From: a virus
Taxonomy: Duplodnaviria > Heunggongvirae > Uroviricota > Caudoviricetes
Strand: one strand, 5' to 3'
Length of the DNA: 64,000 nucleotides
IMG/VR virus record: IMGVR_UViG_3300033696_000004
Location: 36,031 to 100,030 of that record
The translations under genes and the position numbers were made by a program. The notes under the pieces were generated by a model. The model saw only the letters and a list, made by a program, of their open reading frames with translations. It was not told where the DNA came from and ran no database searches. Shown one piece after another: positions 8,470-57,364 of the stretch (position 1 is the stretch's first letter; each line of letters starts with the position of its first letter).

Positions 8470-8481
8470 GAATACATAGAA

Positions 8482-9475: not shown

Positions 9476-9477
9476 TT

Positions 9478-10962: not shown

Positions 10963-10968
10963 AATTCT

Positions 10969-11058: not shown

Positions 11059-11065
11059 AATTCAT

Positions 11066-11139: not shown

Positions 11140-11161
11140 ATTCACTTAACGGACAAACACT

Positions 11162-12112: not shown

Positions 12113-12118
12113 AATTAT

Positions 12119-12191: not shown

Positions 12192-12197
12192 CATTCC

Positions 12198-13995: not shown

Positions 13996-14634
13996 ATGTT
14001 TGTAAAATCTATTACCAGAAATGAATGTGAACCATTTATTCTAGGTATTCATTATGCTAAACGTTGGTGTTCTATTAGTTACGCATTTGGATTATATCAA
14101 CCTATAGAGAATGACTTTATGGGAAGAGATGAATTAATTGGTATCGTAACCTATGGTACTCCACCAAGTTCTACATTAAAATCTGGTATTGCTGGCGATG
14201 AACATAAAGAAAAGGTTCTAGAACTTAACAGGTTATGTTTGAAATACAATCGCAAGAATGAAGCTAGTTTCTTGGTTGGAAATAGCCTTAAACTATTACC
14301 TAAGAATCGAATTGTAGTAAGCTTTGCTGACATAGAGCAAGGTCACAATGGTTGTGTATATCGTGCAACTAACTTTACTTACCATGGTTTATCTGCGAAA
14401 CGTAAAGACTGGAAGGTAAAGGGTCTAGAACACTTACATGGTATTACTATTGCGGATCAGTTTCGTGGCGTAGAGAACCGTGGTAAGGCTATTCGTGAAC
14501 ATTATGGTGATGACTTCTACATGCAAGAACGTCCACGTAAACATCGTTACATCTTTGTTACTGGTGATAAGCGTCAGAAGAAGATTTTAAAATCCGCTAT
14601 CAAATATCCAATAGAAAAATTTATCAAAGAATAG
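13996..14634 (+). CDS. putative Mom-like DNA-modification protein (acyltransferase fold), tentative
   Basis: 212 aa. Motif pattern GIHYAKRW...LIGIVTYGTP...ELNRLCL...VVSFADIEQGHNGCVYRATNFTYHG matches my memory of the phage Mu Mom family signature (HHY..., SYAD..GH.G.IY.A.N). This is recalled from memory, not a database hit. Confidence 0.4.
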   Translation: MFVKSITRNECEPFILGIHYAKRWCSISYAFGLYQPIENDFMGRDELIGIVTYGTPPSSTLKSGIAGDEHKEKVLELNRLCLKYNRKNEASFLVGNSLKLLPKNRIVVSFADIEQGHNGCVYRATNFTYHGLSAKRKDWKVKGLEHLHGITIADQFRGVENRGKAIREHYGDDFYMQERPRKHRYIFVTGDKRQKKILKSAIKYPIEKFIKE

Positions 14635-14720: not shown

Positions 14721-16121
14721 ATGACTTCATTATTCCAAGCTATGAGTACTGGAACTGGTCGCACTCATAACGGTGCAATTACTAACACGACTTCTTTCAG
14801 TAAGTGTCTAGATTTGTTTAACGTTATCGGTTCAAGTCGTGGTAAAGATTTAACTACAATGTTTGCTAACGCATGGAAAGAAAATCCAGATGTTGCTCTA
14901 CGTATCCTGCAATGGTCTCGTGACTGTCGTGGTGGTGCTGGTGAGCGTGAAGTGTTCCGTATCATCATGCGTCGTATGGCTGGTAACGCAAGCACTCGTG
15001 AACAAGCAATTACAATCCTGCGTAAAGTTCCAGCATTGGGTTACTGGAAAGACGTTGTTAAGTTGTACGAAGTTCAAGAATTCCGTCCAGTTATCAACGA
15101 AATGATTGCTGTTTCATTAGCTGCTGACGATGGTCTATGTGCTAAGTATATGCCACGTAAAGGTGTTACTGCTGCTCAACTTCGCAAAGCATTAGGCTTA
15201 GAAGCTCGTGAATATCGTAAACTGATTGTTTCTATGAGTAACACTGTAGAGCAAAAAATGTGTGCGAAGAACTGGAATGAAATTGACTTCAGTAAGATCC
15301 CATCTCTTGCTGCTGCTCGTTACCAGAAAGCATTCATGAAGAACGCAGAAACGAACTATAATGCATACATAGCTGCTCTTGAAAAAGGTGAAGCTAAGAT
15401 CAATGCGTCAACATTGTTTCCATACGATGTACTAAAATCGTGTATTAGTGGTGTATCTGCTGTTGCTGACCAGCAATGGAAAGCACTTCCAAACTACATG
15501 GAAGGTACAGACGAACGTGTACTACCATTGATTGACGTTTCTGGTTCTATGCACTGTTCAAGCGGTATCAATGGTATTGACTGTATGCACGTTGCAATCT
15601 CTCTTGGTATGTACTTATCAGACAAGCAAGAAGGTGAGTTCAAAGACACTTTCATGACGTTCGATAGTCGTCCACAGATGTTGAAAGCAAGCGGTACGTT
15701 GACTAACCGTTACAATCAGATTCGTCGTTCTCCATGGGGCGGTGGTACTGACATTCAAGCGGTATTCGATACGTTGCTGAATAAAGCTACCGAATCTCGT
15801 GTTGCAGCTGATAAGATGCCAACTACAATTGTTATCCTGTCTGACATGGAATTCAACTCATGTTACGTACGTGGTAAAGATGCATCTGCATTCCGTATGA
15901 TTGAAGCTGAATACGCTCGTCATGGTTATGCTCGCCCTAAGCTAGTATTCTGGAATTTGAATGGTCGTCAATCCAACAATCCAGTAATATTAGGTGAAGG
16001 TGGTACTTGTATGGTATCTGGTTTTAGTCCTGCAATCATGACTTCGGTTCTGTCTGCAAAAGATTTCGACCCATACAGCATCATGCTAGAAGCGGTAATG
16101 AAAGACAAATACGCTTTATAA
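14721..16121 (+). CDS. large vWA-domain protein (TROVE/DUF2828-like architecture)
   Basis: 466 aa. C-terminal MIDAS motif DVSGSMHCSS and a later SDMEFN motif indicate a vWA domain. The N-terminal ~250 aa is a helical domain. Confidence 0.55.
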   Translation: MTSLFQAMSTGTGRTHNGAITNTTSFSKCLDLFNVIGSSRGKDLTTMFANAWKENPDVALRILQWSRDCRGGAGEREVFRIIMRRMAGNASTREQAITILRKVPALGYWKDVVKLYEVQEFRPVINEMIAVSLAADDGLCAKYMPRKGVTAAQLRKALGLEAREYRKLIVSMSNTVEQKMCAKNWNEIDFSKIPSLAAARYQKAFMKNAETNYNAYIAALEKGEAKINASTLFPYDVLKSCISGVSAVADQQWKALPNYMEGTDERVLPLIDVSGSMHCSSGINGIDCMHVAISLGMYLSDKQEGEFKDTFMTFDSRPQMLKASGTLTNRYNQIRRSPWGGGTDIQAVFDTLLNKATESRVAADKMPTTIVILSDMEFNSCYVRGKDASAFRMIEAEYARHGYARPKLVFWNLNGRQSNNPVILGEGGTCMVSGFSPAIMTSVLSAKDFDPYSIMLEAVMKDKYAL

Positions 16122-26835: not shown

Positions 26836-27948
26836 ATGAAAATCAATGAAATGAACAATCGCCAAATTAAAGAATCTGGTCTACACACTAAAGCCGTAGT
26901 AATCGGTCGGTTTGAACCAGTAATGCACCGTGGTCATGTATCCATGATCCATAAAGCTTTAGACGTAGCAAAAGAAGTGTTTATCGTAATCGGATCTGCT
27001 AGTGCTTATCCTGATGTGAAAAACCCAATTTCTGTTGATTTGCGTCAACGTTGTATCTGGAACATCTTGCGTGATGAATTCACGGTGGAACAATGTTCTC
27101 GTATCAAAACTCGTTATGTTAATGACTACAAATACAATGACGAGAAGTGGAAAACTGAAATTCGTATGCAAGTCGGTGAACGTCGTTGGGATAACATCGC
27201 AATGATTGGATTCGAGAAAGACCAAGATTCATACTGGTTAAATGAGTTTGGTTGGACAATGATTCCAGTTGAGCCTACTATGGTAAGCTGGTTGGGTTCG
27301 AGTGTTCCAATGAGTTCTACGTTTATCCGTGATCATTGGCTACGTACTGGTGAAATCTTACTTAAAGAAATGCTACCTCAAGCATGTGTTGATTTCCTAG
27401 AGAAGTTCACGTGGATTAATGGTAAATTCAGTAAAGAGTTCGACCGTCTAAACGAAGAACGTTTGAAGTGGGACAAAGAAATCAAGAAGTTTGATGATTA
27501 CCCATACATGGAATCACTACATGGTGTATGTGCTGACTCTGTAGTATTATGCAATAATCATGTTTTGTTAATCGAACGCAAGTTTGCACCAGGAAAAGGT
27601 GCATGGGCTTTACCAGGCGGTCACAAGAATAGTGATGAAACATTCCGTTATGCTGCATTGCGTGAACTGGAAGAAGAAGTTGGTCTGAAGGTATCGCCTA
27701 AAGTAATTCGTGGTTCTATCAAAGATTCTCAATTGTTTGATGACCCTAAGCGTACTGCTGTATTCTGTAAACCTACAGTTGCTCAGTTTATTGTATTGCA
27801 ACCCGACCACGATGGTAAATTACCACGTGTTCAGGGTGCTGATGATGCTAAACGTGCATTCTGGGTTCCACTTCATGAAATTAAAGAAAACCCACAGAAG
27901 CTATTTGATGACCATTCATGCATCATTAGTTACTTCACTGGTGTTTGA
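26836..27948 (+). CDS. natV: bifunctional NMN adenylyltransferase / Nudix ADP-ribose pyrophosphatase (NatV/NadM-Nudix type)
   Basis: 370 aa. N-terminal nucleotidyltransferase motif GRFEPVMHRGH (HxGH-like) and C-terminal Nudix box GGHKNSDETFRYAALRELEEEVGL. Confidence 0.75.
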   Translation: MKINEMNNRQIKESGLHTKAVVIGRFEPVMHRGHVSMIHKALDVAKEVFIVIGSASAYPDVKNPISVDLRQRCIWNILRDEFTVEQCSRIKTRYVNDYKYNDEKWKTEIRMQVGERRWDNIAMIGFEKDQDSYWLNEFGWTMIPVEPTMVSWLGSSVPMSSTFIRDHWLRTGEILLKEMLPQACVDFLEKFTWINGKFSKEFDRLNEERLKWDKEIKKFDDYPYMESLHGVCADSVVLCNNHVLLIERKFAPGKGAWALPGGHKNSDETFRYAALRELEEEVGLKVSPKVIRGSIKDSQLFDDPKRTAVFCKPTVAQFIVLQPDHDGKLPRVQGADDAKRAFWVPLHEIKENPQKLFDDHSCIISYFTGV

Positions 27949-28091: not shown

Positions 28092-29300
28092 ATGCTACAA
28101 TCTATTATAGGAATCTTATTCCTCCTAGCGTTAGGATATGCGTTCTCTGAGAATCGTAATGCGATTAGCTGGAGGGCTGTAATCGGTTCATTTGCAATAC
28201 TAATGAGTATTTCCGCATTTGTACTGGGAACCGATTTCGGTGCTGATGTTCTATTAGCAGCATCGAAAGGTGTTGGTTCTGTTTTTTCCTACGGAACTGA
28301 AGGTATTAAGTTTGTATTCGGTAACCTAGTTACATTCCAAGTTGAAGGACTTGGATTCATATGGGCTTTCCAAGTACTTCCAATGATTATATTCACCGCA
28401 TCGCTCACATCATTATTATACTACTATGGTATTATGCAATGGTTCGTTCGTATTATCGGTGGCGGTCTTCAGAAACTGTTAGGTACATCCCGTGCGGAAT
28501 CAATGAGTGCAGCTGGTAACATTGTACTAGGTCAAACTGAAGCACCACTTCTAGTTCGTCCTTATCATCCAATATTAACTCGTGCTCAAATATTTGCAAT
28601 CATGGTCGGTGGTCTTGCTTCAATTGCTGGTTCTATCCTAGCTGGTCTAGCTGGAATGGGTGTTGAACTCAAGTACCTGATTATGGCGTGTTTCATGTCG
28701 GCTCCAGCTGGTTTATTGTTCGCTAAATTAATCATCCCCGAAACTGAAACGACTATCGACGAAGTTCCCGAAGAACCCGAAGAAGATAAAGCAACAAGTT
28801 TCATTGATGCAATCGCAAAGGGTGCAATGACTGGTCTAGCAATCGCTGGTATCGTTGGTGCAGTTATCATTGCATGTATCGGTATCATGGCTTTGCTTAA
28901 CGGTATACTTGGTTATGTCGGTGGATTTGTTGGTTACGCAAGTCTGTCGGTTGACACAATCCTTGGATTCGTCTTCGCTCCTATCGCATGGATGATCGGT
29001 GTTCCTTGGTCAGAAGCAATGCAAGCTGGTTCTCTGATTGGTCAAAAGATCGCAATGAATGAGTTCGTAGCTTACGCAAGCTTCGGCACAATGGAATTGT
29101 CTGCTAAGACATCTGGTATCATCACAATTGCACTATGTGGATTCGCTAACATTAGTTCGGTTGCAATGGTTGTAGGTGCTATGAGTAAGATGATACCAAC
29201 AAAAGCTGGTATCATCGCATCTCTTGGTATGAAAGTACTATTAGCTGCTACTATGGCTAACCTAATGGCTGCTACAGTCGTAGGTCTGTTCATATCATAA
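28092..29300 (+). CDS. concentrative nucleoside transporter (NupC/CNT family)
   Basis: 402 aa polytopic membrane protein. Recognisable NupC signatures: GTEGIKFVFGN, FQVLPMIIF, and SESMSAAGNIVLGQTEAPLLVRPY matching the conserved SxAxxGN(I/V)FLGQTEAPLL(I/V)RPY motif. Confidence 0.75.
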   Translation: MLQSIIGILFLLALGYAFSENRNAISWRAVIGSFAILMSISAFVLGTDFGADVLLAASKGVGSVFSYGTEGIKFVFGNLVTFQVEGLGFIWAFQVLPMIIFTASLTSLLYYYGIMQWFVRIIGGGLQKLLGTSRAESMSAAGNIVLGQTEAPLLVRPYHPILTRAQIFAIMVGGLASIAGSILAGLAGMGVELKYLIMACFMSAPAGLLFAKLIIPETETTIDEVPEEPEEDKATSFIDAIAKGAMTGLAIAGIVGAVIIACIGIMALLNGILGYVGGFVGYASLSVDTILGFVFAPIAWMIGVPWSEAMQAGSLIGQKIAMNEFVAYASFGTMELSAKTSGIITIALCGFANISSVAMVVGAMSKMIPTKAGIIASLGMKVLLAATMANLMAATVVGLFIS

Positions 29301-30361: not shown

Positions 30362-31402
30362 ATGAAAACAATTATGACAACAATCTTCGGTTCACATCTA
30401 TACGGTTTGAACACTGAAAATAGCGATATGGATTACAAGTCAATCTTTATTCCTGAAACAAAATACTTGGTTCTACAAACAGCAATACGTAACATCAGTC
30501 ATTCTACTGGTGGTCAAGATGCTAAGAACACAGCAGAAGATGTAGATACGGAACTTTTCGCACTACATGAATGGATTAAACTGGCTCTACAAGGTGAGAC
30601 TGTAGCACTTGACATGCTTCATACTACACCTGAAATGTTGCTTGAAACTTCTCCTACGTGGGAGTTCATTCAAGAAAACCGTTGGCGTTTCTACACCACT
30701 GACATGCGTTCATACGTGGGTTACGTGAAGAAACAAGCTGCTAAGTACGGTGTCAAAGGTACACGTCTAGATGCTCTACAGAAGAGTATCGATGAAGCTA
30801 ATGAAGCACTGTGCTTAGCTAATACGTATGATGGAGAAATTGATGTTAATACCATCAAACTAGGTGATGTTATTGACTACCTACCAGAAGATCATTACCG
30901 TAGTAAAGTTACCGACACCAAAGGTGAACATGAGTACCACTTCTACAAGGTATTAGAAAAGAAGTTTCAGACTACGCTGCGTGTAACTGAATACATCTCT
31001 ATCTTGCAAGGTATCTACAACTCTTACGGTTCTCGTGCTAAAGAAGCACAAGAGAACAAAGGTATCGACTGGAAAGCATTGTCACATGCTATCCGTGGTG
31101 GTTACCAGTTGAAAGAGATCTACACTACTGGTGACTTGAAGTACCCGTTAAAACAGCGTGAGTTCCTTCTAGCGGTTAAGCGTGGTGAACTTGATTTCAT
31201 CACGCAAGTTAAACCAGAACTTGAAAAAATTGTTGACGAAGTAGAGAAACTTGCTATAGAATTGGAAACATCTGGTAAGCTTCCACGTAAACCTGATCGT
31301 AAATTCTGGGATGACTTCGTATACAAAGTATACGGTGGAGAAATCTATCACGATTATGACCGTTACTTGGAAGAAGAAGACAATAACGAAAGTCATATGT
31401 AA
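30362..31402 (+). CDS. Pol-beta superfamily nucleotidyltransferase (function unknown)
   Basis: 346 aa. N-terminal GSHLYGLNTENSDMDY fits the GS-x9-13-DxD minimal NTase motif. The C-terminal ~200 aa are helical. Confidence 0.55.
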   Translation: MKTIMTTIFGSHLYGLNTENSDMDYKSIFIPETKYLVLQTAIRNISHSTGGQDAKNTAEDVDTELFALHEWIKLALQGETVALDMLHTTPEMLLETSPTWEFIQENRWRFYTTDMRSYVGYVKKQAAKYGVKGTRLDALQKSIDEANEALCLANTYDGEIDVNTIKLGDVIDYLPEDHYRSKVTDTKGEHEYHFYKVLEKKFQTTLRVTEYISILQGIYNSYGSRAKEAQENKGIDWKALSHAIRGGYQLKEIYTTGDLKYPLKQREFLLAVKRGELDFITQVKPELEKIVDEVEKLAIELETSGKLPRKPDRKFWDDFVYKVYGGEIYHDYDRYLEEEDNNESHM

Positions 31403-31463: not shown

Positions 31464-32582
31464 ATGAAACAATTTACTAAACAACAGAGAACTAAACAGT
31501 TCGAAGGTAATAAAATGAACGCATTTACACAACGTAATAATCCAATCAAAACTCCAATCAAAACTCAAATTAATGGTGCAAAAATGAAAAAATTAGCAAT
31601 CGGTGTAGGCATTACTCTAGCAACTATCGCAGTTGGTTCTCAATTCTTCCTAACGGTACAGAAAGGTCACGTTGGCGTAGAAAGTAAGATGGGTGGTATG
31701 ATTGTGCTTGATAAGCATTATTCAGAAGGTCTACACTTCCCAGTTAACCCATTATCATCTTTCGTTGAAATCTCAGTCAAAGATGAATCTATACCGCTTA
31801 AAGGTATTGAAATTGACCGTGTTGGTAATGCATACTCTAATGGTAGCTATGTACTACAAACTGCTGACCAAATGACAACTGGAGTTGATGTAGAAATCTT
31901 GCTTCAACTTAAACCTAAGTTCGCACCATACTTCGTTCAACAAGTTGGCACATTCGATGGTGCGGTTGGTACATACATTACTCCAGCATTGCTTGAGTCA
32001 TTGATGAAACAAGGTTCATCTGTTGAATCTGCACAAGATTTGTTTAGTACTACAGCTAAACACAATCTAAAAACTGGAACAATGAAAGACATGGTTTCGT
32101 ACTTACAGAATCCAGAAATTATGGGTAAGTTATCTAATGGTTTCACTATTAAAGACGTTAAGTACCAACGTATGGTTCTTCCACCTCGTATCCAAGAGAT
32201 GATCAACCAAGCTAAAGAGCGTGAAGAGGCTGAAGACATTGCGGTATCCAACGAAACAATCCGCAAGACTGACGCAGATGCTAAGTTGTACGAAGAACAA
32301 AAACATGCTCTTGCAACCGAAGCACAAGCCGATGCTGAAGCTCACCGTCGTACAGTTAACGCAACTGCTGTAGAAAAAGAAGCTGATGCTAAGTTATACG
32401 CAATGCAAAAAGAATCTGCTGGTATCAAGAACTTAAATTCTTCAATTAATCCTCAATACATCCAGTACATGAACGCACAAGCAGCTGTAACAGCTGCACA
32501 GAACTACAAAGGCGGAGTACCACAATCGGTCACTACGCTTGGTGATGCTAACAACTTCATACCATTTATGAACATGAAGTAA
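31464..32582 (+). CDS. SPFH/band-7 (HflK/C-stomatin-like) domain protein
   Basis: 372 aa (true start may be an internal ATG). An N-terminal transmembrane segment, then LTVQKGHVGV...the SPFH core, and a long A/E/K-rich coiled-coil tail. Confidence 0.55.
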   Translation: MKQFTKQQRTKQFEGNKMNAFTQRNNPIKTPIKTQINGAKMKKLAIGVGITLATIAVGSQFFLTVQKGHVGVESKMGGMIVLDKHYSEGLHFPVNPLSSFVEISVKDESIPLKGIEIDRVGNAYSNGSYVLQTADQMTTGVDVEILLQLKPKFAPYFVQQVGTFDGAVGTYITPALLESLMKQGSSVESAQDLFSTTAKHNLKTGTMKDMVSYLQNPEIMGKLSNGFTIKDVKYQRMVLPPRIQEMINQAKEREEAEDIAVSNETIRKTDADAKLYEEQKHALATEAQADAEAHRRTVNATAVEKEADAKLYAMQKESAGIKNLNSSINPQYIQYMNAQAAVTAAQNYKGGVPQSVTTLGDANNFIPFMNMK

Positions 32583-32591
32583 TAAATTAAA

Positions 32592-32618
32592 AAGCATAGA
32601 CCGAAGTCTATGCTTTTT
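32592..32618 (+). terminator. rho-independent terminator
   Basis: agcatagaccgaagtctatgct hairpin plus T run. Confidence 0.6.
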
Positions 32619-32785
32619 CGTATGTAATTATGTTAATATGTGAATAGAATGCAACTTACTTTATTTGTTTATTCATATTTTGATATAATGTGACATAACT
32701 CGCGTTTTGTACATAAAGCATGGTGTATTATAGTTACATTCTTCTCTCTGAAGAATGTAACTCAACTAATTAAAAGGATAACATT

Positions 32786-33199
32786 ATGTCAAATTGTCAT
32801 GACGTAAATAATAAATTTATGGAATTAACTGAAACCGAATTCGTATCAATGATTGATGTGATCGACAATCCAGTAACGTTTGCTGCCCTGATTCGCACAC
32901 TATCGTGGAACATGATTAACAATGGTAACATCCACCAATACTTACACGACCGTGGAGCTTTAAAGCTTGAGTTTGGTTCTGTAACAATGGAAGAAGCAGA
33001 CCTACGCACTAAAGAAATTGAGTTCAGTTTTTATAACTCAAAATCTGTTACTGGATACGATTCAGAATTGCTATGTGATTTAGTAGCTGGTATGATTGAA
33101 TCTCTTGGTTATGAGACTGTATTGACGGACGTTTATTATGGAGTTAGTGATGTTCGTGAACGTGAAGAAATAGTTATTCGTGTTGCTAAGCTAGTTTAA
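32786..33199 (+). CDS. hypothetical protein
   Basis: 137 aa ORF. A 29-bp perfect inverted repeat (32733-32761) lies just upstream. Confidence 0.45.
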   Translation: MSNCHDVNNKFMELTETEFVSMIDVIDNPVTFAALIRTLSWNMINNGNIHQYLHDRGALKLEFGSVTMEEADLRTKEIEFSFYNSKSVTGYDSELLCDLVAGMIESLGYETVLTDVYYGVSDVREREEIVIRVAKLV

Positions 33200-33266
33200 A
33201 TTGATTGACATCATCTCTGGGGTGTGATAACATACCCAGATAATTATATACTTTGGAATTATAATA

Positions 33267-33839
33267 ATGCAAAATAAAAAGCCATCTATTTCTGCAAGAA
33301 TACGAACAGAATTGAAGTCGGAAGATCGTAGTATTTTGGTTACTCTTGGCAATAAGAAAACAACAGACCTATATAAAATGCTGAACTATCTAATATCAAA
33401 TAAAATTATTGATAAGAATGGTTTCAGTGAAGAACTTGATTATGACCAGTTACGAATAAACGCAAACCTATCTAATCAATCCACAACTGGAAATTGCTTA
33501 GGAAGAAGGCTGGATGATGGAGAAGTTGAGAATTACTTAAAGAATGGAACTCCAGCAACTGTTAGAAGTTTACGTTCTTTTATTTCAATTACTGTAAATG
33601 GAGTAAAGCAAGACGATTCCAAATTGAGAGCCAGTGAGATAAGAAAAGGGTCTAAGATTAAATTTGATGGATTCCGATTGCAATGTGTGACTTTATCTCA
33701 GTTTTATAAAGGTAAATCTGGAAAGCTTTTGGTAAAAATGGTTTATGTTCAACCAGAACCATATATCACTTATATACCACAAGATACGAGTACAATTGAA
33801 TTATCAACGTCAAATGATTTATCATTTTTGATGGATTAA
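33267..33839 (+). CDS. hypothetical protein
   Basis: 190 aa ORF after a TTGACA promoter. Confidence 0.45.
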   Translation: MQNKKPSISARIRTELKSEDRSILVTLGNKKTTDLYKMLNYLISNKIIDKNGFSEELDYDQLRINANLSNQSTTGNCLGRRLDDGEVENYLKNGTPATVRSLRSFISITVNGVKQDDSKLRASEIRKGSKIKFDGFRLQCVTLSQFYKGKSGKLLVKMVYVQPEPYITYIPQDTSTIELSTSNDLSFLMD

Positions 33840-33928
33840 TTGATTGACAAACCCTCTCAGTGTGTTATTATGACCACATTCCTGAGAGGGAACAAACAAA
33901 ACTTAATTAAACACTTGGGAGTCAAGTT

Positions 33929-35365
33929 ATGGAATTCTTCAATAAAAATCTAGCAGTAAGTACAGACAGCTACAAAGCATCTCACGCATGTAAATCACAA
34001 AATGAACATGTAAAAACGGTTGGTCAGTTCCCAGAAGGTACTACCCATACTTCTTATTACATCGAAGCACGTACCGAAGATGAAGAACTTGTTGCAGCTG
34101 GCATGAACTTCGTTGCTAAAGTCTTGGAGCAAGGCATCACATTAGTTAAAGTCAATCGTGCAAATCTAATCTACCGTGCTCACTTTGGTCGTGAAATCTT
34201 CAACTACGATGCTTGGGTTCGTATCGCTACTGAGTTTGGTGGTAAACTACCAATCGACATGTGGGCTGTTCCTGAAGGTACTATAATTCCTTCTAAGACA
34301 GCAATCGCAGTTATTGAAAATACCCATCCTGATTACCCATGGTTACCAGGAAATCTAGAAACATTCGCACTACGTGGTGTCTGGTATCCAACATCCGTTA
34401 CTACTAAGTCGTACCGTTGTTTGAAAGTTTTGAAAAAATACATGGATATGACTTCTGACCTAAAAGGTGAAGCATATACTACGACACTGAAAACCCGTTT
34501 ACATGACTTTGGTGCTCGTGGTGCTTCTTCTGAAGAGTCTGCTGCAATTGGTGGTCTAGCTCACCTTTATAACTTCATAGGTACTGATACCGTAGAAGCA
34601 TTGGTACTAGCTCAAGACCTATACAATGTTGCATGTGCTGGTTTCTCTATTCCTGCTCGTGAGCATAGTACAACAATCAGCTACGAAGACGAAGATGATG
34701 CATACCGCAACAGCATTGAGTTATACGGTGAAGGCTACTACTCTTGTGTAATGGACTCAACTGATTACGAAGCTGCTGTAGAACGTGTATGTTTAACCAT
34801 GAAAGATGACATCATTGCTAAGGGTGGTACGTTTGTATTCCGTCCTGACAGTGGTAGCATGATCGATAACATTATGTTCACGCTAAACATCCTTGGTAAG
34901 TACTTCGGTTACACTCGCAATAGCAAAGGCTACAAGGTTCTACATCCAAGTGTTCGTATCATCCAAGGTGATGACATTAACTCAGCTGACGACATCGAAC
35001 GTGTTCTGAGTTGGATGGAAACCCATCGTTGGGCTGCTGAGAACATTGCGTTTGGTATGGGTGGTGGTCTTCTACAGAAGGTTAACCGTGATACTCATAA
35101 GTTTGCTATGAAGCTAAGTGCTATCAAAGTGAATGGCGAATGGCGTGGTGTTCGTAAGTGTCCAAAGGGCGCAGAATGGAAAGCTAGTAAGAAAGGTCGT
35201 TTACGTACAATCCGTCGCCATGATGGTAAGTTGGAAACGGTTGACATCCTTACTAACGATACATTCGAAGGTAGTCTTGAAATGTTCAAGTTCATTCAAG
35301 ATGGTAAGTTAGGTTACACGGATACATTAGAAAACATTCGTAAGTGTATTGACAATAGCTTATAA
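33929..35365 (+). CDS. nadV: nicotinamide phosphoribosyltransferase (NAMPT/NadV)
   Basis: 478 aa. The N-terminus NLAVSTDSYKASH matches the NAMPT hallmark (..TDSYK.TH). Length and overall pattern are typical of NadV. Confidence 0.8.
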   Translation: MEFFNKNLAVSTDSYKASHACKSQNEHVKTVGQFPEGTTHTSYYIEARTEDEELVAAGMNFVAKVLEQGITLVKVNRANLIYRAHFGREIFNYDAWVRIATEFGGKLPIDMWAVPEGTIIPSKTAIAVIENTHPDYPWLPGNLETFALRGVWYPTSVTTKSYRCLKVLKKYMDMTSDLKGEAYTTTLKTRLHDFGARGASSEESAAIGGLAHLYNFIGTDTVEALVLAQDLYNVACAGFSIPAREHSTTISYEDEDDAYRNSIELYGEGYYSCVMDSTDYEAAVERVCLTMKDDIIAKGGTFVFRPDSGSMIDNIMFTLNILGKYFGYTRNSKGYKVLHPSVRIIQGDDINSADDIERVLSWMETHRWAAENIAFGMGGGLLQKVNRDTHKFAMKLSAIKVNGEWRGVRKCPKGAEWKASKKGRLRTIRRHDGKLETVDILTNDTFEGSLEMFKFIQDGKLGYTDTLENIRKCIDNSL

Positions 35366-35376
35366 TAATGTACAAT

Positions 35377-35405
35377 GGGAACTTCTTCGGAGGTTCCCAT
35401 TTTAT
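35377..35405 (+). terminator. rho-independent terminator
   Basis: gggaacttcttcggaggttccc hairpin plus T run. The same hairpin recurs at 40242-40270. Confidence 0.65.
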
Positions 35406-35417
35406 TAAGGAAATAGT

Positions 35418-35621
35418 ATGACATTTATTAATAAGAAAGCACATCGTATCCAACAGAGTATAGATCAACTAGAACGTGATAAGAACATCTGCAAATCACG
35501 TAAGAGACAATACTTGGATTATGTGGCTGAGTTGGATACTCGTGTTGAAACTATCGATTCTCGTATAGAAGAAACTAAACTTAATCTTGCTAATGTTATT
35601 AAGAGATTCAAGCATGATTAG
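35418..35621 (+). CDS. hypothetical small protein
   Basis: 67 aa coiled-coil-like ORF. Confidence 0.4.
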   Translation: MTFINKKAHRIQQSIDQLERDKNICKSRKRQYLDYVAELDTRVETIDSRIEETKLNLANVIKRFKHD

Positions 35622-35772
35622 CGATGAACGGTTTGAACGCTTCTGTTGGACTGAAAATAATCCACCTATAGTGATTCCTAAAGGCGACAAAGAAGCATTA
35701 CTAAAATGTCTAGCAGAAGCTAAGGCATTCAACGATAAGTATCGTTCTCAACCAAATAAGGAAACAGAATGA
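35587..35772 (+). CDS. hypothetical small protein
   Basis: 61 aa. Stop TGA overlaps the next ATG (ATGA). Confidence 0.35.
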   Translation: MLMLLRDSSMISDERFERFCWTENNPPIVIPKGDKEALLKCLAEAKAFNDKYRSQPNKETE

Positions 35773-35873
35773 GTATTGGTAAGTTGTTAGCGTTAATGAT
35801 TATTGCTGGTGTTAGTGGGTTTGCAATGGGATGGTTCATTGCTTCATTTTTAGATGTTACGGGTGCATTGTAA
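35769..35873 (+). CDS. 35-aa hydrophobic peptide (single transmembrane helix)
   Basis: MSIGKLLALMIIAGVSGFAMGWFIASFLDVTGAL. It is coupled ATGA to the upstream ORF and TAATG to the sirtuin gene. Not in the supplied ORF track (too short). Confidence 0.35.
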   Translation: MSIGKLLALMIIAGVSGFAMGWFIASFLDVTGAL

Positions 35874-36577
35874 TGGGTAAAATCTTTATTATTTCAGGTG
35901 CTGGTTTATCAGCTGAGTCAGGTGTTCCAACTTTCCGTGATGCAAACGGTCTATGGCATAATCATAAAATCGAAGATGTTTGTTATATCAGTACGTGGCA
36001 GCAAAACTATCACTTAGTTCACCGTTTCTATAATGAACGTCGTGTTGAAATGGGTAATGTGGAACCAAATGCAATGCATAAAGCTATTGCTGGTTGGCAG
36101 AAAGAGTTCGGTAAAGAAAATGTAATCAATGTTACAACTAACGTAGATGACTTACTAGAACGTGCTGGCGTTGAAGATGCAGTCCATCTTCATGGCGAAA
36201 TCACTAAGATTGTCGATACTCGCACTGGCGAAATAGAAGACATTGGTTACACTGCTTTCGATAGCAAATTCCTCGATACTGAAGTCCATAAACCTTACGT
36301 TGTATTCTTCGGTGAACATGCTCCAGAATATGAAACATTAAGCGCAATGACTAATTTTGACATGCAAGGTGGTGATATTGTTGTCTTCATCGGTATGAGT
36401 TTTGTAGTGGTTCCAGTTGGTATGTGTCTACCGTGGTGTCGTAATGTATCTACGATCAATATCAATCCTGATCCTAAGACTGGTTACGACCACGAATGGG
36501 ATTTACACATTGAGTCAACCGCAACGGAAGCTATCACACAACTGGATCGCATTATCCGCAATAATTTGACAAAATAA
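35873..36577 (+). CDS. Sir2-family NAD-dependent deacylase (sirtuin)
   Basis: ~234 aa from the ATG at 35873. GAGLSAESGVPTFRDANGLW is the canonical sirtuin NAD-binding motif (GAGIS..SGIPTFRG..GLW). HG motif at HLHGE. Confidence 0.75.
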   Translation: MGKIFIISGAGLSAESGVPTFRDANGLWHNHKIEDVCYISTWQQNYHLVHRFYNERRVEMGNVEPNAMHKAIAGWQKEFGKENVINVTTNVDDLLERAGVEDAVHLHGEITKIVDTRTGEIEDIGYTAFDSKFLDTEVHKPYVVFFGEHAPEYETLSAMTNFDMQGGDIVVFIGMSFVVVPVGMCLPWCRNVSTININPDPKTGYDHEWDLHIESTATEAITQLDRIIRNNLTK

Positions 36578-36631
36578 ATTGTTTATGTTACCAGATTTTA
36601 CTGTATAATAAATACTATTCCAAACGGAGGT

Positions 36632-37123
36632 ATGACAGTGAAACAGTTGAAATCTGGCAAAACATACAAAGAAGCAAAGGAGACATTATATCATCAACAG
36701 AATGGTAAATGTCTCCTTTGTGATCGTAACCTAGAATCAAACATTCAAAAGAACCATTTAGACCACGACCACGCTCTAACAGGATCTGATGCTGGTAGAG
36801 TTCGTGGATTGTTATGTAATCTGTGTAATGGTACTGAAGGTATAGTCAAACATAAGTTCAATCGTTCTGGACTAGTCAGACAAGAAGTTGATTACATCAA
36901 ATGGTTGGAAAATCTAGTCATTTATCTAAAGAAAGATTATTCTAGAAATGACTTCCATCCTCAGTACATAACTGATATAATAAAGCAGTTCTCTAGATTG
37001 TCTCTAAGTGAGATGAAAAATGAAATGCACAAAAGAGGTTATACCCATGAACAATCTGACAAAAAATCAGAGTTGGTTAAAAAATTCAGCAAACAATTTC
37101 GAAAGGAGCAACACAGCTTATGA
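36632..37123 (+). CDS. 49: recombination endonuclease VII (T4 gp49-like)
   Basis: 163 aa. Strong similarity to T4 EndoVII as I recall it: NGKCLLCDRNLE...NHLDHDHALTG..AGRVRGLLCNLCNGTEG..KHKFNRSGL...DYIKWLENL. Confidence 0.85.
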   Translation: MTVKQLKSGKTYKEAKETLYHQQNGKCLLCDRNLESNIQKNHLDHDHALTGSDAGRVRGLLCNLCNGTEGIVKHKFNRSGLVRQEVDYIKWLENLVIYLKKDYSRNDFHPQYITDIIKQFSRLSLSEMKNEMHKRGYTHEQSDKKSELVKKFSKQFRKEQHSL

Positions 37124-38997
37124 ACAACTGGAAAACCAATATGATCCATGAGATCAAAGAGCTATACAATGGTACTAATAATGCAGTTAACAACGAAAAT
37201 GCAAATAAAGATGCAATGGTTATTGCAACAAAGCGTGATTTACTTGCTGGTATCGTATCCAAATCATTTGCGTTAAATGAACTATTACCAGTACACATTG
37301 CCAAAGCTCATGTTGATGGCGATTTACATTTTCACGATTTGGATTATTCACCATTGGGTAGCTACTTCAACTGTATGATCGTTGACATACCTGAGATGTT
37401 TAAAGGCTTTACTATGGGTTCTGCCGAAGTTGAGACTCCTAAGTCGATCAACACTGCAATGAATCTAGTTGCTCAGATTGTTGCTAATGTGTCGTCTAAT
37501 ACTTACGGTGGTACTACCATCCAGCAGTTAGATGAAATCATGGTTCCTTATGTTCGTTCATCTTATAACAAACACTTATCATTGTTCCTACGTGTGTACG
37601 AAGGTGATGAACGCAAAGCTGCTATCATGGCAGAAGAACTGACCGAAAAGGAAGTGTATGACGCTTGTCAATCTCTTGAATATGAATTGAATACGATTTA
37701 TTCATCTAACGGTCAAACTCCATTCGTTACTATTAACTTTGGACTTGGTACTTGTTGGGAATCTCGTTTAGTTCAAAAGGGTATTTTGCAGACTCGCATC
37801 AACGGTCTAGGTAAGACTAAGAAAACAGCTGTATTCCCTAAACTAGTTTTCACAATTAAAGATGGAGTCAACCACAAACCGTTTGACCCCAACTACGATG
37901 TCAAGCAATTGGCATTGGAGTGTGCTTCTAAACGTATGTATCCTGACATACTGAACTATGATAAACTGGTAGAGATTACTGGTGACTTTAAAGCTCCTAT
38001 GGGATGTCGTAGCTTCCTTTCGCCATGGACTGATGCAAACGGTAAGTATACTACTATGGGTCGCAACAACATGGGTGTAGTTTCTGTGAACATTCCACGC
38101 ATTGCAATCGAAGCTAATGGTGACATTGAAAAATTCTGGGAACTATTAGACCAGCGTGTTGGATTTGTCAAAGAAGCTCTTGATGTTCGGGTTGACCGTC
38201 TGCGTACAGTACAAGCAAAAGAAGCTCCTATTCTTTACATGCATGGTGCTCTTGGTGTTCGTTTACAGCCAGAAGATTACGTATTCAGTATCCTAGAAAA
38301 TGGTCGTGCATCAGTTTCTATGGGTTACATTGGTTTACACGAAGCAGCAAATGCTATGTTTGGCGATGACGAACATACGGTTGAGTCTCCACGTAAAACG
38401 CATTTTACTGTTGAAATCGTTGAGCGTTTACGTAATTACACTGACAAATGGAAGAAGGAAAGCGGTCTAGGTTACAGCTTATACTCAACTCCATCTGAAA
38501 GCCTATGTGACCGTTTCTGTAAGCTTGACAGCAAGAAGTTTGGTGTTATCGCTGGTGTGAATGATAAAGAGTACTACACTAACTCTTTCCATCAATGTGT
38601 TCTTAAAAAGACAACACCTTACGAAAAGATTGACTTCGAAGCTCGTTACCCACAATATACAAGTGGTGGTTTCATCTCTTATGTTGAATTCCCTAACGTT
38701 AAGCATAACCTGAAAGGTCTTGAAACTATTTGGGATTACACATACACTCGTTTACCATACTTTGGTACGAACACTCCAGTTGATAACTGTAGTGAATGTG
38801 GTTTCTATGGTGAATCTAAGGCTACTAAGCAGGGATTTGAATGTCCATGCTGTGGCAACAAAGATCCTCGTACATTATCGGTTACACGTCGTGTGTGTGG
38901 TTACTTGGGTAATCCTGGTGCTCGTCCTTATTGTGTTGGTAAACAAGTTGAAGTTATTGGTCGTGTCAAGCACATGTCACCACTCGGAAAACTATAA
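37120..38997 (+). CDS. nrdD: anaerobic ribonucleoside-triphosphate reductase (class III)
   Basis: 625 aa. C-terminal glycyl-radical motif RRVCGYLG and a Zn ribbon CSECG...CPCCG. Followed by the activase gene. Confidence 0.85.
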   Translation: MNNWKTNMIHEIKELYNGTNNAVNNENANKDAMVIATKRDLLAGIVSKSFALNELLPVHIAKAHVDGDLHFHDLDYSPLGSYFNCMIVDIPEMFKGFTMGSAEVETPKSINTAMNLVAQIVANVSSNTYGGTTIQQLDEIMVPYVRSSYNKHLSLFLRVYEGDERKAAIMAEELTEKEVYDACQSLEYELNTIYSSNGQTPFVTINFGLGTCWESRLVQKGILQTRINGLGKTKKTAVFPKLVFTIKDGVNHKPFDPNYDVKQLALECASKRMYPDILNYDKLVEITGDFKAPMGCRSFLSPWTDANGKYTTMGRNNMGVVSVNIPRIAIEANGDIEKFWELLDQRVGFVKEALDVRVDRLRTVQAKEAPILYMHGALGVRLQPEDYVFSILENGRASVSMGYIGLHEAANAMFGDDEHTVESPRKTHFTVEIVERLRNYTDKWKKESGLGYSLYSTPSESLCDRFCKLDSKKFGVIAGVNDKEYYTNSFHQCVLKKTTPYEKIDFEARYPQYTSGGFISYVEFPNVKHNLKGLETIWDYTYTRLPYFGTNTPVDNCSECGFYGESKATKQGFECPCCGNKDPRTLSVTRRVCGYLGNPGARPYCVGKQVEVIGRVKHMSPLGKL

Positions 38998-57363: not shown

Positions 57364-57364
57364 A

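What the first reader, a model, noticed from the sequence alone, without database searches (positions are those of the whole stretch)
33929..36577. NAD+ module: NadV plus translationally coupled micro-ORF chain ending in a Sir2 sirtuin, with NatV upstream
NadV (NAMPT, 33929-35365) and NatV (NMNAT-Nudix, 26836-27948) give the phage a two-step nicotinamide-to-NAD+ salvage route.

Immediately downstream of nadV is a chain of overlapping small ORFs (35418-35621, 35587-35772, then a 35-aa single-TM peptide at 35769-35873, ATGA-coupled). This chain ends TAATG-coupled into a bona fide sirtuin (GAGLSAESGVPTFRDANGLW).

A phage-encoded NAD-consuming deacylase or ADP-ribosyltransferase co-located with NAD+ regeneration is notable. 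Many bacterial defences (Thoeris, DSR, SIR2-HerA, pAgo-Sir2) kill by NAD+ depletion via SIR2 domains, and phage NadV/NatV-type NAD reconstitution has been reported as a counter-defence.

Here the phage carries both the regenerating enzymes and its own sirtuin.
Basis: partly seen in the sequence, partly recalled or inferred. Interest (0 to 1): 0.6.

Follow-up and report, generated by a model that had tools for sequence, protein, structure and literature searches.

The report
Phage NAD salvage genes beside sirtuin
An uncultured T4-like phage carries the known two-enzyme NAD+ rebuilding route and, right after one of its genes, a phage-type sirtuin with three small genes, a pairing already seen in phages such as KVP40 and RaK2.

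Summary
nadV is at 33929-35365 and natV at 26836-27948. Three tiled small ORFs and a 234-aa sirtuin (35873-36577) are all present.

The small ORFs look like real genes by codon usage. orfA and orfB also show purifying selection against a relative.

The sirtuin keeps the catalytic His, Asn, Arg and Phe and the class-III Y-x-x-R pair. It folds like E. coli CobB and SIRT5. It belongs to a phage-specific clade that has lost all zinc cysteines and the Gln of TQN(I/V)D. KVP40, T5, Mydo and RaK2 sirtuins are in the same clade.

The nadV-sir2 adjacency is conserved in 7 of 9 informative metagenomic relatives, and it recurs in RaK2-type jumbo phages. It is rare among other phage sirtuin loci (nadV within 4 kb in 3 of 42).

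The small ORFs fill a variable slot. The closest relative has none.

The orfA-orfB-orfC-sir2 unit appears to have its own early promoter, which overlaps the nadV stop codon and hairpin.

NAD salvage together with a phage Sir2 has been in print since the KVP40 genome. This is therefore a new member of a known kind. What the sirtuin does remains untested.

Side note: the window also encodes a PurZ homologue.

The parts
26836..27948 (+). natV: bifunctional NMN adenylyltransferase plus Nudix hydrolase, the second step of salvage
   Evidence: Pfam NUDIX 1.3e-18 and CTP_transf_like 4.6e-4. NCBIfam PRK05379-type 'bifunctional NMNAT/Nudix' 1e-70, below the curated cut-off. PHROG 395 1.6e-81. The motifs GRFEPVMHRGH, SSTFIRD and the Nudix box GGHKNSDETFRYAALRELEEEVGL can be read in the translation.
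33844..33871 (+). Sigma-70-type early promoter-like site upstream of nadV (TTGACA-16-TATTAT, TG-extended)
   Evidence: 11 of 12 matches. It is one of 18 such sites on the + strand, against 4 on the - strand and 1.5 +/- 1.2 in shuffles.
33929..35365 (+). nadV: nicotinamide phosphoribosyltransferase, the first step of salvage
   Evidence: Pfam NAPRTase 1.5e-38 and NAMPT_N 1.9e-19. NCBIfam PRK09198 scores 438 bits against a cut-off of 405. PHROG 448 1.4e-147. 54-81% identical to the nadV of relatives L003-L009.
35349..35376 (+). Early promoter-like site for the orfA-orfB-orfC-sir2 unit; it overlaps the nadV stop codon (TTGACA-16-TACAAT)
   Evidence: 11 of 12 matches. The same position in L005 carries a 12/12 site and L008 a 10/12 site. 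L003 has its site just after the hairpin.
35374..35406 (+). UUCG-loop hairpin followed by a T-rich tail, directly after nadV. Terminator or mRNA-stabiliser-like.
   Evidence: Centroid fold -17.7 kcal/mol, z = -4.4, 0 of 200 shuffles fold as well. An equivalent hairpin plus T-run follows nadV in L003, L005, L006, L007, L008, L009 and RaK2.
35418..35621 (+). orfA: 67-aa hydrophilic, probably helical protein of unknown function
   Evidence: Codon score 0.33. SD -6.1 kcal/mol. 77% identical over 43 aa to the contig-cut ORF in L012, with pN 0.17 and pS 0.70. No Pfam, NCBIfam or PHROG family.
35614..35772 (+). orfB: 52-aa protein of unknown function; its start overlaps the orfA stop (ATGATTAG)
   Evidence: Codon score 0.47. 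Homologues in L012 (73%) and L005 (50% over 44 aa), in both directly upstream of and overlapping sir2. pN 0.16, pS 0.54. Only 3 hits among 1.84 billion representatives. Weak SD, -2.9 kcal/mol.
35769..35873 (+). orfC: 34-aa hydrophobic single-span peptide; ATGA overlap with orfB and TAATG overlap with sir2
   Evidence: Codon score 0.38. GRAVY 1.62, best 19-residue window 2.16. SD -6.2 kcal/mol. No homologue anywhere. Unrelated small membrane ORFs occupy the same slot in L005, L008 and RaK2.
35873..36577 (+). sir2: 234-aa phage-type sirtuin, class III-like, without zinc cysteines
   Evidence: Pfam SIR2 1.5e-30 over the full profile. PHROG 2162 4.9e-59. E. coli CobB 1S5P 6e-29. AF2 model pLDDT 94.4; Foldseek to CobB TM 0.82-0.85, then Sir2-Af1 and SIRT5. 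G9 A10 G11, F21, R22, Y53, R56, N90, H107 and G108 are conserved. It has TTN in place of TQN and 0 Cys in the small domain.

Best explanation
**What it is.** This is the early-gene NAD+ block of an uncultured T4-like (Straboviridae-type) phage.

**Salvage route.** NadV converts nicotinamide plus PRPP to NMN. NatV adenylates NMN to NAD+, and its Nudix half can break down ADP-ribose. This is the KVP40-type 'NARP2' route.

**The sirtuin unit.** Directly downstream of nadV lies a separate early transcription unit, orfA-orfB-orfC-sir2.
- Its promoter overlaps the nadV stop codon.
- A transcript from that promoter would begin inside the 5' arm of the nadV hairpin. It would therefore not form the hairpin and not be stopped by it.
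- Within the unit the reading frames overlap, and the two starts with weak ribosome-binding sites (orfB and sir2) sit on the preceding stop codon. Translation is therefore probably coupled.

**The sirtuin itself.** Sir2 is a member of the phage-specific, zinc-less, Gln-less sirtuin clade.
- It keeps the NAD+ pocket, the catalytic His and the acyl-lysine/peptide-binding features of CobB and SIRT5.
- It most likely cleaves NAD+ to remove acyl groups from lysines of host or phage proteins, or to ADP-ribosylate them. Either reaction releases nicotinamide.
- NadV, encoded next door, recycles that nicotinamide, which is also a sirtuin inhibitor, and NatV closes the loop.

**The small ORFs.** They are real but dispensable cargo in a variable slot, not core parts of the module.

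**Shown versus inferred.**
- Shown: gene identities, motif states, fold, conserved synteny, and coding signal for the small ORFs.
- Inferred: promoter use, translational coupling, the sirtuin's chemistry and target, and the functional link to NadV.
For: **Domain and family hits.**

**Experimentally characterised homologous pathway.** KVP40 NadV and NatV make NAD+ and cancel Thoeris and DSR2 defence.

**Sirtuin features.**
- Best sequence match is CobB, 6e-29.
- Model pLDDT 94.4. Best folds are CobB, Sir2-Af1 and SIRT5, TM 0.77-0.85.
- GAG, F21, R22, N90 and H107-G108 are invariant or nearly so, as is Y53-x-x-R56. FGE and VVP are retained.
- No defence-SIR2 profile match.

**Clade.** Gln loss and Cys loss co-occur (68 Q + Cys, 50 neither, 5 mixed). 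The 50 form one nested clade with KVP40, T5, Mydo and RaK2.

**Synteny.**
- nadV-sir2 are adjacent in the window, L003, L005, L006, L007, L008 and L009/L010.
- The adjacency also occurs in RaK2.
- 22% of Sir2-bearing phage records carry a NadV-family gene, against 4% of all records.

**Transcription.**
- The promoter population is enriched 12-fold over shuffles and is strand-biased.
- The site is conserved in L005 and L008.
- Hairpin z-score -4.4.

**Coupling.**
- SD strength of the window sir2 is -3.8 kcal/mol, against -5.4 to -6.2 in nine relatives.
- The orfB SD is weak where its start overlaps an upstream stop and strong where it does not.
Against: - No phage sirtuin of this clade has a published activity in the library searched.
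- The clade has lost the zinc site that canonical sirtuins need for stability, and the Gln of TQN(I/V)D. The chemistry may differ, or activity may be low.
- The protein scores below every curated NCBIfam CobB cut-off (149 bits against 243).
- nadV-sir2 adjacency is absent from KVP40, L004 and L013.
- It is also absent from 39 of 42 other phage Sir2 loci.
- Within the clade, adjacency could simply be inherited synteny in a nucleotide-metabolism region.
- The promoter, the role of the hairpin and the translational coupling are sequence inferences only.
Confidence: 0.55

Rival explanations
1. The sirtuin works on RNA, not protein. Like Tpt1/KptA, it would transfer ADP-ribose from NAD+ onto a 2'-phosphate left after cleavage of tRNA or mRNA by host nucleases, as part of phage RNA repair. 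NadV and NatV would supply the NAD+ and clear the products.
For: - Iyer et al. [quoted passage not shown]
- The window's Sir2 is in the same clade as the Mydo and T5 sirtuins.
- In Mydo the gene sits between an RNA ligase and a DNA ligase.
- An RlaP 'RNA repair pathway' nucleotidyltransferase lies 4.5 kb upstream here and is conserved in L006.
- The phage carries 18 tRNA genes.
- The invariant Y53/R56 pair, which binds a carboxylate in SIRT5, could bind a phosphate.
Against: - There is no RNA ligase, kinase-phosphatase, 2H, cREC or PIN gene next to sir2 in the window or in any of its nine close relatives. The neighbours are nadV, endonuclease VII and nrdD.
- The peptide-binding FGE and VVP elements of protein deacylases are retained.
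- The proposal itself is computational and untested.
Confidence: 0.2
2. There is no functional module. nadV and sir2 are neighbours only because both sit in the conserved nucleotide-metabolism region of this phage lineage. The small ORFs are ordinary fast-turnover T4-type early genes unrelated to NAD+.
For: - The whole order RlaP-Band7-...-nadV-...-sir2-...-endoVII-nrdD-nrdG is syntenic in the relatives. Adjacency could therefore be inherited.
- The slot between nadV and sir2 holds unrelated inserts: nothing, membrane peptides, or a split homing-endonuclease-like gene.
- Each unit has its own promoter.
- Most phage Sir2 loci lack a nearby nadV.
- In T5 the sirtuin gene also lies near nrdD, with no nadV involved.
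Against: - The same nadV - small ORF - sir2 order, flanked by natV-like and nudE genes, occurs in the unrelated RaK2 jumbo phage lineage.
- Sir2-bearing phage records are about 5-fold enriched for NadV-family genes.
- orfB is found only directly in front of sir2 in all three loci that have it.
- The biochemical link is direct: the product of one enzyme is the substrate of the other.
Confidence: 0.2
3. The sirtuin is a plain NADase or toxin used by the phage against the host or against competing phages. orfB would be its regulator or immunity protein, and NadV/NatV would protect the phage's own NAD+ supply.
For: - SIR2 domains that only hydrolyse NAD+ are common in conflict systems.
- Like those, this clade lacks the zinc module.
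- A tiny clade-restricted ORF overlaps the sir2 start in three loci.
Against: - No defence-type SIR2 profile matches.
- The best folds are deacylases, not ThsA-, DSR- or HerA-type SIR2.
- The closest relative L003 and L006-L010 have sir2 without orfB.
- Destroying NAD+ while rebuilding it from costly PRPP would be futile.
Confidence: 0.05

Closest known systems
Vibrio phage KVP40 (Schizotequatrovirus): NadV + NatV (NARP2) and Sir2/CobB protein KVP40.0043
   Same: - T4-like phage with many tRNA genes.
- The same three protein families.
- The KVP40 sirtuin also lacks the zinc cysteines and the Gln (TAN).
- The NadV/NatV pathway is biochemically proven and shown to counter NAD+-depleting defence.
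   Different: - Sir2 is only 41% identical, and no DNA-level similarity was found.
- In KVP40 sir2 lies between small ORFs and topoisomerase gene 39, far from nadV. Here it follows nadV.
- The window's subclade has GMS where others have GTS or GST.
Klebsiella jumbo phage vB_KleM_RaK2 (Alcyoneusvirus): natV-like / HNH / nadV / ORF501 / sir2 / nudE cluster
   Same: - Same gene order: nadV, hairpin, promoter, small membrane ORF, sir2, all on one strand.
- NAD-related genes on both sides.
- Zinc-less, Gln-less sirtuin (TSN).
   Different: - Unrelated phage lineage, with about 33% identity.
- The RaK2 sirtuin lacks the Arg of the Y-x-x-R pair and has GNG instead of GAG.
- Its small ORF is not homologous to orfA, orfB or orfC.
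E. coli CobB and human SIRT5 (class III sirtuin lysine deacylases)
   Same: - Best sequence and fold matches.
- GAGxS, FR, N-x-D and H-G are present, as are Y-x-x-R, FGE and V-x-P.
   Different: - No zinc-binding cysteines.
- Thr replaces the Gln of TQNID, and GMS replaces GTS.
- Below the NCBIfam equivalog cut-offs.
Defence SIR2 NADases (ThsA, DSR1/2, SIR2-HerA, SIR2-APAZ)
   Same: SIR2 superfamily; uses NAD+; no zinc module.
   Different: - No sensor or partner domain, and no PADLOC match.
- Not among the top structural matches.
- Encoded by the phage among early metabolic genes.

Membership tests
Sirtuin (Sir2 family, PF02146) | Rossmann-type NAD+ pocket with the G-A-G-x-S loop and the F-R cofactor loop | tested here: met
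   GAGLSAESG at residues 9-17 and TFR at 20-22. These are invariant or nearly invariant in the 22- and 117-sequence alignments. The Pfam match covers profile positions 1-180 of 180.
Sirtuin (Sir2 family, PF02146) | Catalytic His (H-G) and the Asn/Asp of the (T)QN(I/V)D motif | tested here: met
   H107-G108 and N90 are invariant, and D92 is present in at least 90% of sequences. The Gln itself is replaced by Thr (TTNVD), as it is throughout the phage clade.
Sirtuin (Sir2 family, PF02146) | Four-cysteine zinc-binding small domain | tested here: not met
   There are 0 Cys between residues 109 and 141. CobB and 68 related sequences have at least 3. The small three-stranded domain is still predicted, with pLDDT about 80-97. 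KVP40-type sirtuins were already reported to lack the zinc site.
Class III sirtuins (CobB/SIRT5-like deacylases) | Y-x-x-R pair that recognises acidic acyl groups, and closest fold to CobB/SIRT5 | tested here: met
   Y53 and R56 are invariant in the subclade. The top Foldseek hits are CobB (TM 0.82-0.85), Sir2-Af1 and SIRT5.
Class III sirtuins (CobB/SIRT5-like deacylases) | NAD+-dependent lysine deacylase activity | not testable with these tools
   This needs an enzyme assay. No published assay of a phage sirtuin was found.
Bacterial CobB equivalogs (NCBIfam) | Score above the curated cut-off | tested here: not met
   The best model, NF001753, scores 149.4 bits against a cut-off of 243. All seven matching models are below their cut-offs.
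Phage sirtuin clade (PHROG 2162; T5.102, rV5 gp080, KVP40.0043) | Sequence membership plus the shared derived states (no Gln, no zinc Cys) | tested here: met
   PHROG 2162 4.9e-59. 1022 phage records match. It sits in one nested clade with KVP40, T5, Mydo and RaK2 in the NJ tree, all of them non-Q with 0-1 Cys.
Predicted viral RNA-repair sirtuin systems (Iyer et al. 2022) | Conserved neighbourhood with RNA ligase, cREC, 2H, Nudix, PIN, kinase or HAD phosphatase genes | tested here: not met
   The immediate neighbours are nadV, small ORFs, endonuclease VII and nrdD, both here and in nine relatives. Only an RlaP nucleotidyltransferase lies nearby, 4.5 kb upstream.
NARP2 (NadV/Nampt + NatV/Nmnat NAD+ reconstitution) | Nampt-type phosphoribosyltransferase (NAMPT_N + NAPRTase) | tested here: met
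   (above the curated cut-off). The active-site stretches HDFG, GTDT, RPDSG and GGGLLQ are present in the translation. Their assignment to human NAMPT residues is from memory.
NARP2 (NadV/Nampt + NatV/Nmnat NAD+ reconstitution) | An Nmnat partner in the same genome and no Adps (Prs-like) partner | tested here: met
   natV is at 26836-27948, with HxGH, ISST-like and Nudix motifs. No Prs-like domain was found in any of the 58 window ORFs scanned. Only this 64-kb window could be checked.
NARP2 (NadV/Nampt + NatV/Nmnat NAD+ reconstitution) | Restores NAD+ and overcomes NAD+-depleting defence | not testable with these tools
   Shown for the KVP40 genes, not for these.
Defence-type SIR2 NADase systems | Match to defence SIR2 profiles and an associated sensor or partner (SLOG, HerA, pAgo, TIR) | tested here: not met
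   PADLOC gives only PDC-S65 at E = 0.005, with no passing stretch. The protein is a single domain of 234 aa, and no such partner genes are nearby.

The most novel reading that the evidence does not exclude
The zinc-less, Gln-less phage sirtuin clade may have a chemistry other than lysine deacylation, for example ADP-ribosylation of an RNA 2'-phosphate or of another phosphorylated or acidic acceptor. In this T4-like lineage and in RaK2-type phages, NadV/NatV would then be kept next to sir2 mainly to feed and detoxify that reaction, not only to counter host NAD+ depletion. orfB would be a clade-specific partner of the enzyme.
Probability: 0.15. Interest if true: 0.65.

Novelty: new member of a known kind. 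Interest (0 to 1): 0.3.

Why it matters
Phage NAD+ rebuilding is now read almost entirely as counter-defence. Yet about a fifth of sirtuin-bearing phages also carry a NadV-family gene, and two unrelated lineages place the genes side by side. This hints that part of the pathway's job is to serve the phage's own NAD+-consuming enzyme.

No phage sirtuin of this widespread clade (T5, rV5, KVP40 and RaK2 types, over a thousand records) has a known activity or target.

This locus offers a compact, well-delimited operon for testing that question. It has a 234-aa enzyme predicted with high confidence, a natural variant series with and without the small ORFs, and a predicted promoter/terminator overlap.

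Beyond that, the finding itself is an expected feature of a KVP40-like gene set.

Tried and rejected
**Searches that found nothing.**
- Megablast of the 3-kb region against 50,697 phage records found nothing.
- Single-sequence scans of IMG/VR with Sir2 and with NadV found no relatives. An alignment-based scan did work.
- Rfam scan of 32500-37500 at E <= 1 found no RNA family.
- Pfam, NCBIfam and PHROG searches of orfA, orfB and orfC gave nothing credible. The PADLOC hits of orfA to PbeC and CorA-like (E about 1e-3 to 1e-2) were dismissed as coiled-coil noise.
- A profile search of orfB against 1.84 billion representatives gave only its own cluster, a 66-aa protein at 1e-4 and a repetitive 654-aa protein. 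It is therefore an orphan family.
- Lee et al. 2017 (PMC5388814) is not held in the library. What I say about it is from memory or second-hand.

**Ideas rejected.**
- That the 190-aa ORF upstream of nadV is a conserved third member of the module. It has no homologue in the relatives.
- That RaK2 ORF501 or the KVP40 flanking ORFs are related to orfA, orfB or orfC.
- That small membrane ORFs before sir2 are meaningful. Four loci have them, but they are not homologous, and such ORFs are common in these genomes. I leave this as an observation only.

**Tool behaviour.** The terminator scanner missed the nadV hairpin because the stem extends into the T-run. The hairpin was confirmed by folding instead.

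Full report
**1. What is in the sequence**

The window is AT-rich (38% G+C). Nearly all genes are on the + strand. It comes from an ENA metagenome scaffold of 128,588 bp (RIIS19-1_SAMEA5043646_METAG-scaffold_2).

Its gene content is that of a T4-like phage:
- Nucleotide metabolism: NrdA/B, thymidine kinase, dNMP kinase-like, endonuclease VII, NrdD/G.
- Replication and recombination: gp46, gp45 and gp44/62-type proteins, family-B polymerase, UvsX, gp41-type helicase, topoisomerase.
- 18 tRNA genes.

No phage record is similar at the DNA level. The best isolate matches are 58% (NadV) and 44% (Sir2, KVP40-type vibriophages).

- nadV is at 33929-35365 and natV at 26836-27948.
- orfA is at 35418-35621.
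- orfB ends at 35772.
- orfC is at 35769-35873.
- sir2 ends at 36577.

I make three corrections.
- orfB starts at ATG 35614 (52 aa, overlapping the orfA stop as ATGATTAG), not at TTG 35587. The 52-aa form is the one on record elsewhere, and the L012 homologue starts at the same Met.
- orfC is 34 aa, not 35.
- sir2 starts at ATG 35873 (234 aa). The upstream extension of the longest ORF has a non-coding codon score (-0.61), and all homologues begin at the equivalent Met.

**2. Are the small ORFs genes?**

I trained a codon-usage log-odds score on 33 long genes of the window.
- orfA scores 0.33, orfB 0.47 and orfC 0.38.
- Equal-length chunks of real genes score 0.46 +/- 0.16-0.20.
- None of 200 spurious stop-free ORFs of 30-75 codons inside real genes reaches 0.33; their maximum is 0.31.

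orfA and orfB have homologues in a metagenomic relative, L012 (77% and 73% identity).
- For orfA, pN is 0.17 and pS is 0.70.
- For orfB, pN is 0.16 and pS is 0.54.
- These match sir2 itself, at 0.13 and 0.55.
- orfB also matches the N-terminal 44 residues of a 70-aa ORF in L005 at 50% identity.

So orfA and orfB are protein-coding genes under purifying selection.

orfC has no homologue. It is supported only by codon usage, a good Shine-Dalgarno site and exact tiling. It is strongly hydrophobic (GRAVY 1.62).

None of the three matches any family. A profile search of 1.84 billion representatives shows that orfB is an orphan family.

**3. The enzymes**

NadV has NAMPT_N and NAPRTase domains. It passes the curated NCBIfam cut-off (438 against 405 bits).

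NatV has the HxGH and ISST-type nucleotidyltransferase motifs and an intact Nudix box. It matches the 'bifunctional NMNAT/Nudix' models at 1e-70, though below their curated cut-offs.

No Prs-like (Adps) gene was seen among the 58 ORFs scanned. The pair is therefore of the NARP2 type, not NARP1. For the KVP40 homologues, NAD+ synthesis and the defeat of Thoeris and DSR2 were shown experimentally.

Sir2 matches the whole Pfam SIR2 profile (1.5e-30) and PHROG 2162 (4.9e-59). Its best solved relative is E. coli CobB (6e-29).

An AlphaFold model built on 117 homologues is confident (pLDDT 94.4, pTM 0.91). Its best structural matches are CobB (TM 0.82-0.85), Sir2-Af1 and SIRT5, which are all lysine deacylases.

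In alignments:
- The GAG loop, F21, R22, N90 and H107-G108 are invariant or nearly so.
- So is the class-III pair Y53-x-x-R56.
- The FGE and V-V-P peptide-binding elements are kept.

Three things depart from canonical sirtuins:
- All zinc cysteines are missing.
- The Gln of TQN(I/V)D is Thr.
- GTS is GMS.

**4. A phage-specific sirtuin clade**

I scored 123 sequences: the database hits plus KVP40, D484, RaK2, T5, Mydo and CobB.
- 68 have Gln plus at least 3 Cys.
- 50 have neither.
- 5 are mixed.

In a neighbour-joining tree the 50 form one nested clade. That clade contains the window's subclade and all the isolate phages.

The lack of zinc ligands in KVP40-type sirtuins was already noted by Skliros et al. 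2016. The window's protein is thus a member of the widespread phage sirtuin family (1022 phage records) and not a recently captured bacterial CobB. It is also below all NCBIfam CobB cut-offs. It has no convincing match to defence-system SIR2 profiles.

**5. Neighbourhood in relatives**

Contigs encoding the closest Sir2 homologues (51-76% identity) show a conserved backbone: (RlaP)-Band7-...-nadV-[slot]-sir2-[slot]-endonuclease VII-nrdD-nrdG.

nadV is directly upstream of sir2 in the window, L003, L005, L006, L007, L008 and L009/L010.
- That is 7 of 9 informative loci.
- L004 and L013 are the exceptions.
- L012 is cut off by the contig end.

The slot between the two genes is variable:

| Locus | Content of the nadV-sir2 slot |
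|---|---|
| L003 | 88 nt only |
| L007, L009 | 40 nt only |
| L005 | two small membrane peptides plus the orfB-like ORF |
| L006 | a split AP2/HNH-like homing-endonuclease remnant |
| L008 | a 61-aa two-span ORF plus an 85-aa ORF |
| window, L012 | orfA-orfB, plus orfC in the window only |

The micro-ORF chain is therefore real but not a constant part of the module. L003, the closest relative (76%), lacks it.

Where orfB occurs (three loci), it is always the gene just before sir2, or before orfC-sir2.

**6. How general is the nadV-sir2 link?**

In KVP40 the sirtuin gene is far from nadV.

Among 42 IMG/VR loci with phage-type sirtuins (34-44% identity), nadV lies within 4 kb in only 3.

Two observations still argue for a functional link rather than pure inheritance.
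- A tblastn search with a NadV+Sir2 chimera gives 2811 records, against 2013 (NadV) and 1022 (Sir2) separately. About 220 records therefore carry both. That is 22% of Sir2 records against 4% of all records, and it is not corrected for phylogeny.
- In 16 records the two genes are joined in one place. The ones I could see are RaK2-type Klebsiella jumbo phages. In those, the order is natV-like, HNH, nadV, hairpin, promoter, an 88-aa membrane ORF, sir2, nudE. This lineage is unrelated, and its sirtuin is about 33% identical.

**7. Expression signals (inferred)**

Near-consensus sigma-70 promoters (at least 11 of 12 matches) are strongly enriched and strand-biased in the window.
- There are 18 on the + strand, 4 on the - strand and 1.5 +/- 1.2 in shuffles.
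- Most sit just upstream of gene starts.

One (33844-33871) precedes nadV. Another (35349-35376, TTGACA-16-TACAAT) overlaps the nadV stop codon, 42 nt before orfA. L005 has a perfect 12/12 site at the same place and L008 a 10/12 site. L003 has one just after the hairpin.

Directly after nadV there is a 12-bp UUCG hairpin with a T-rich tail (35374-35406).
- Its fold energy is -17.7 kcal/mol, with z = -4.4.
- Every relative and RaK2 has an equivalent hairpin.

The -10 element overlaps the foot of the stem. A transcript from this promoter would therefore start inside the 5' arm and could not form the hairpin. Transcripts coming from nadV could form it.

Ribosome-binding strengths fit translational coupling:

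| Start | Context | SD strength (kcal/mol) |
|---|---|---|
| orfA, orfC | window | -6.1, -6.2 |
| orfB | window | -2.9 |
| orfB | L012 | -3.8 |
| orfB-like | L005, no overlap with an upstream stop | -6.0 |
| sir2 | window | -3.8 |
| sir2 | nine relatives | -5.4 to -6.2 |

The weak starts are the ones that overlap an upstream stop codon.

**8. Interpretation**

The best-supported reading is a NARP2-type salvage pair plus a phage-type, CobB/SIRT5-like sirtuin.
- The sirtuin consumes NAD+ and releases nicotinamide.
- nadV next door can recycle that product.
- The three small ORFs are variable cargo in the same early operon.

The sirtuin's substrate is unknown. Lysine deacylation or ADP-ribosylation of protein is favoured by fold and motifs. 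The RNA-repair proposal of Iyer et al. 2022 applies to the same clade, but the immediate neighbourhood here does not support it.

No experimental study of a phage sirtuin was found.

**9. Comparison and novelty**

The closest known cases are:
- KVP40, which has the same three families and a zinc-less sirtuin, but the genes are not adjacent.
- RaK2, which has the same local gene order.

The co-occurrence and the idea of nicotinamide recycling between the phage Sir2 and NAMPT are already in the literature.

What is new here is modest:
- A divergent uncultured T4-like lineage in which nadV-sir2 adjacency is conserved.
- Two small conserved orphan genes in front of sir2.
- A predicted promoter/terminator overlap.
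- The clean correlation of Gln loss with zinc-site loss across the clade.

I rate this a new member of a known kind, with interest 0.3.

**10. Outside the finding**

The window also encodes a homologue of the PurZ enzyme of 2-aminoadenine phages.
- It matches the phiVC8 PurZ structures at 1e-118 and is 57.6% identical to phiVC8 PurZ.
- This is unusual for a T4-like phage and deserves its own follow-up.

A Mom-family protein, a Dam-type methylase and a CNT/NupC-type nucleoside transporter are also present.

Noticed in passing
window 4612-5682 (+); the true start is probably near 4684: The ORF matches the solved structures of Vibrio phage phiVC8 PurZ (6FM1/6FKO/6TNH, E = 1e-118) and S-2L PurZ (7ODX, 2e-55) far better than it matches cellular PurA (about 1e-19). 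It is 57.6% identical to phiVC8 PurZ. All 25 phage records listed (of 204 that matched) are about 40-kb Vibrio phages. The organism tally is led by Arthrobacter, Vibrio, Microbacterium and Acinetobacter phages. A T4-like phage with PurZ would suggest a 2-aminoadenine (Z) genome. No DatZ or MazZ relative was found in the two ORFs downstream.
   Followed up: partly
window 556-12192 (+): 18 tRNA genes in two clusters, interspersed with small ORFs, an HNH-like ORF (1494-1997) and a PD-(D/E)XK endonuclease ORF (11593-12054).
   Followed up: no
window 13996-14634 and 14721-16121 (+); 58914-59750 (+): A Mom-family protein (PF25680, 3e-35) is followed by a DUF2828/DUF7788 protein. A D12-class Dam-type adenine methyltransferase lies further on. 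Together with the PurZ homologue, these point to DNA base modification in this phage.
   Followed up: no
window 28092-29300 (+): A phage-encoded concentrative nucleoside transporter (CNT/NupC family; all three Pfam domains, 3e-69) lies between natV and the RlaP gene. It could import nucleosides for the phage thymidine kinase, or pyridine nucleosides.
   Followed up: no
window 30362-31402 and 31464-32582 (+): An RlaP 'RNA repair pathway' Pol-beta-type nucleotidyltransferase and an SPFH/Band-7 membrane protein lie upstream of nadV. Band-7 is conserved in that position in L003, L005, L006, L009 and L013, and RlaP is conserved in L006.
   Followed up: partly
L007 515-982, L008 2676-3158, L009 1132-1575: In three relatives a NADAR-domain gene (an ADP-ribose-processing domain family) sits two or three genes upstream of nadV. 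The window has no counterpart.
   Followed up: no
L006 5424-6004: The nadV-sir2 slot of this relative holds two ORFs (55 and 130 aa). By my reading of their translations they look like a frame-split AP2/HNH-type homing-endonuclease gene. L005 has a SegE-type GIY-YIG gene after sir2. The region appears to be a target for mobile endonuclease genes.
   Followed up: no
window, whole length: There are 18 near-consensus sigma-70 promoter sites (at least 11 of 12 matches) on the + strand, against 4 on the - strand and 1.5 +/- 1.2 in shuffles. Most lie directly before gene starts. Only 2 exact T4-late-type TATAAATA motifs were found. The window is largely an early-gene region read by host RNA polymerase.
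   Followed up: partly
window 57323-57895 (+): A second Nudix hydrolase (Nudt16-like, 1.6e-16) lies next to dUTPase and a 3'-5' exoribonuclease-like ORF. It is possibly the NudE/decapping-type enzyme of T4-like phages.
   Followed up: no
L005 5577-5790; L008 5584-5769; L014 (RaK2) 5751-6017; window 35769-35873: Non-homologous small membrane ORFs recur between nadV and sir2 in four loci from two phage lineages. Whether this is more than the general abundance of such ORFs in large phages was not tested.
   Followed up: partly
A homologue follows the sirtuin in one IMG/VR locus as well (L029). Its real family was not checked.
   Followed up: no
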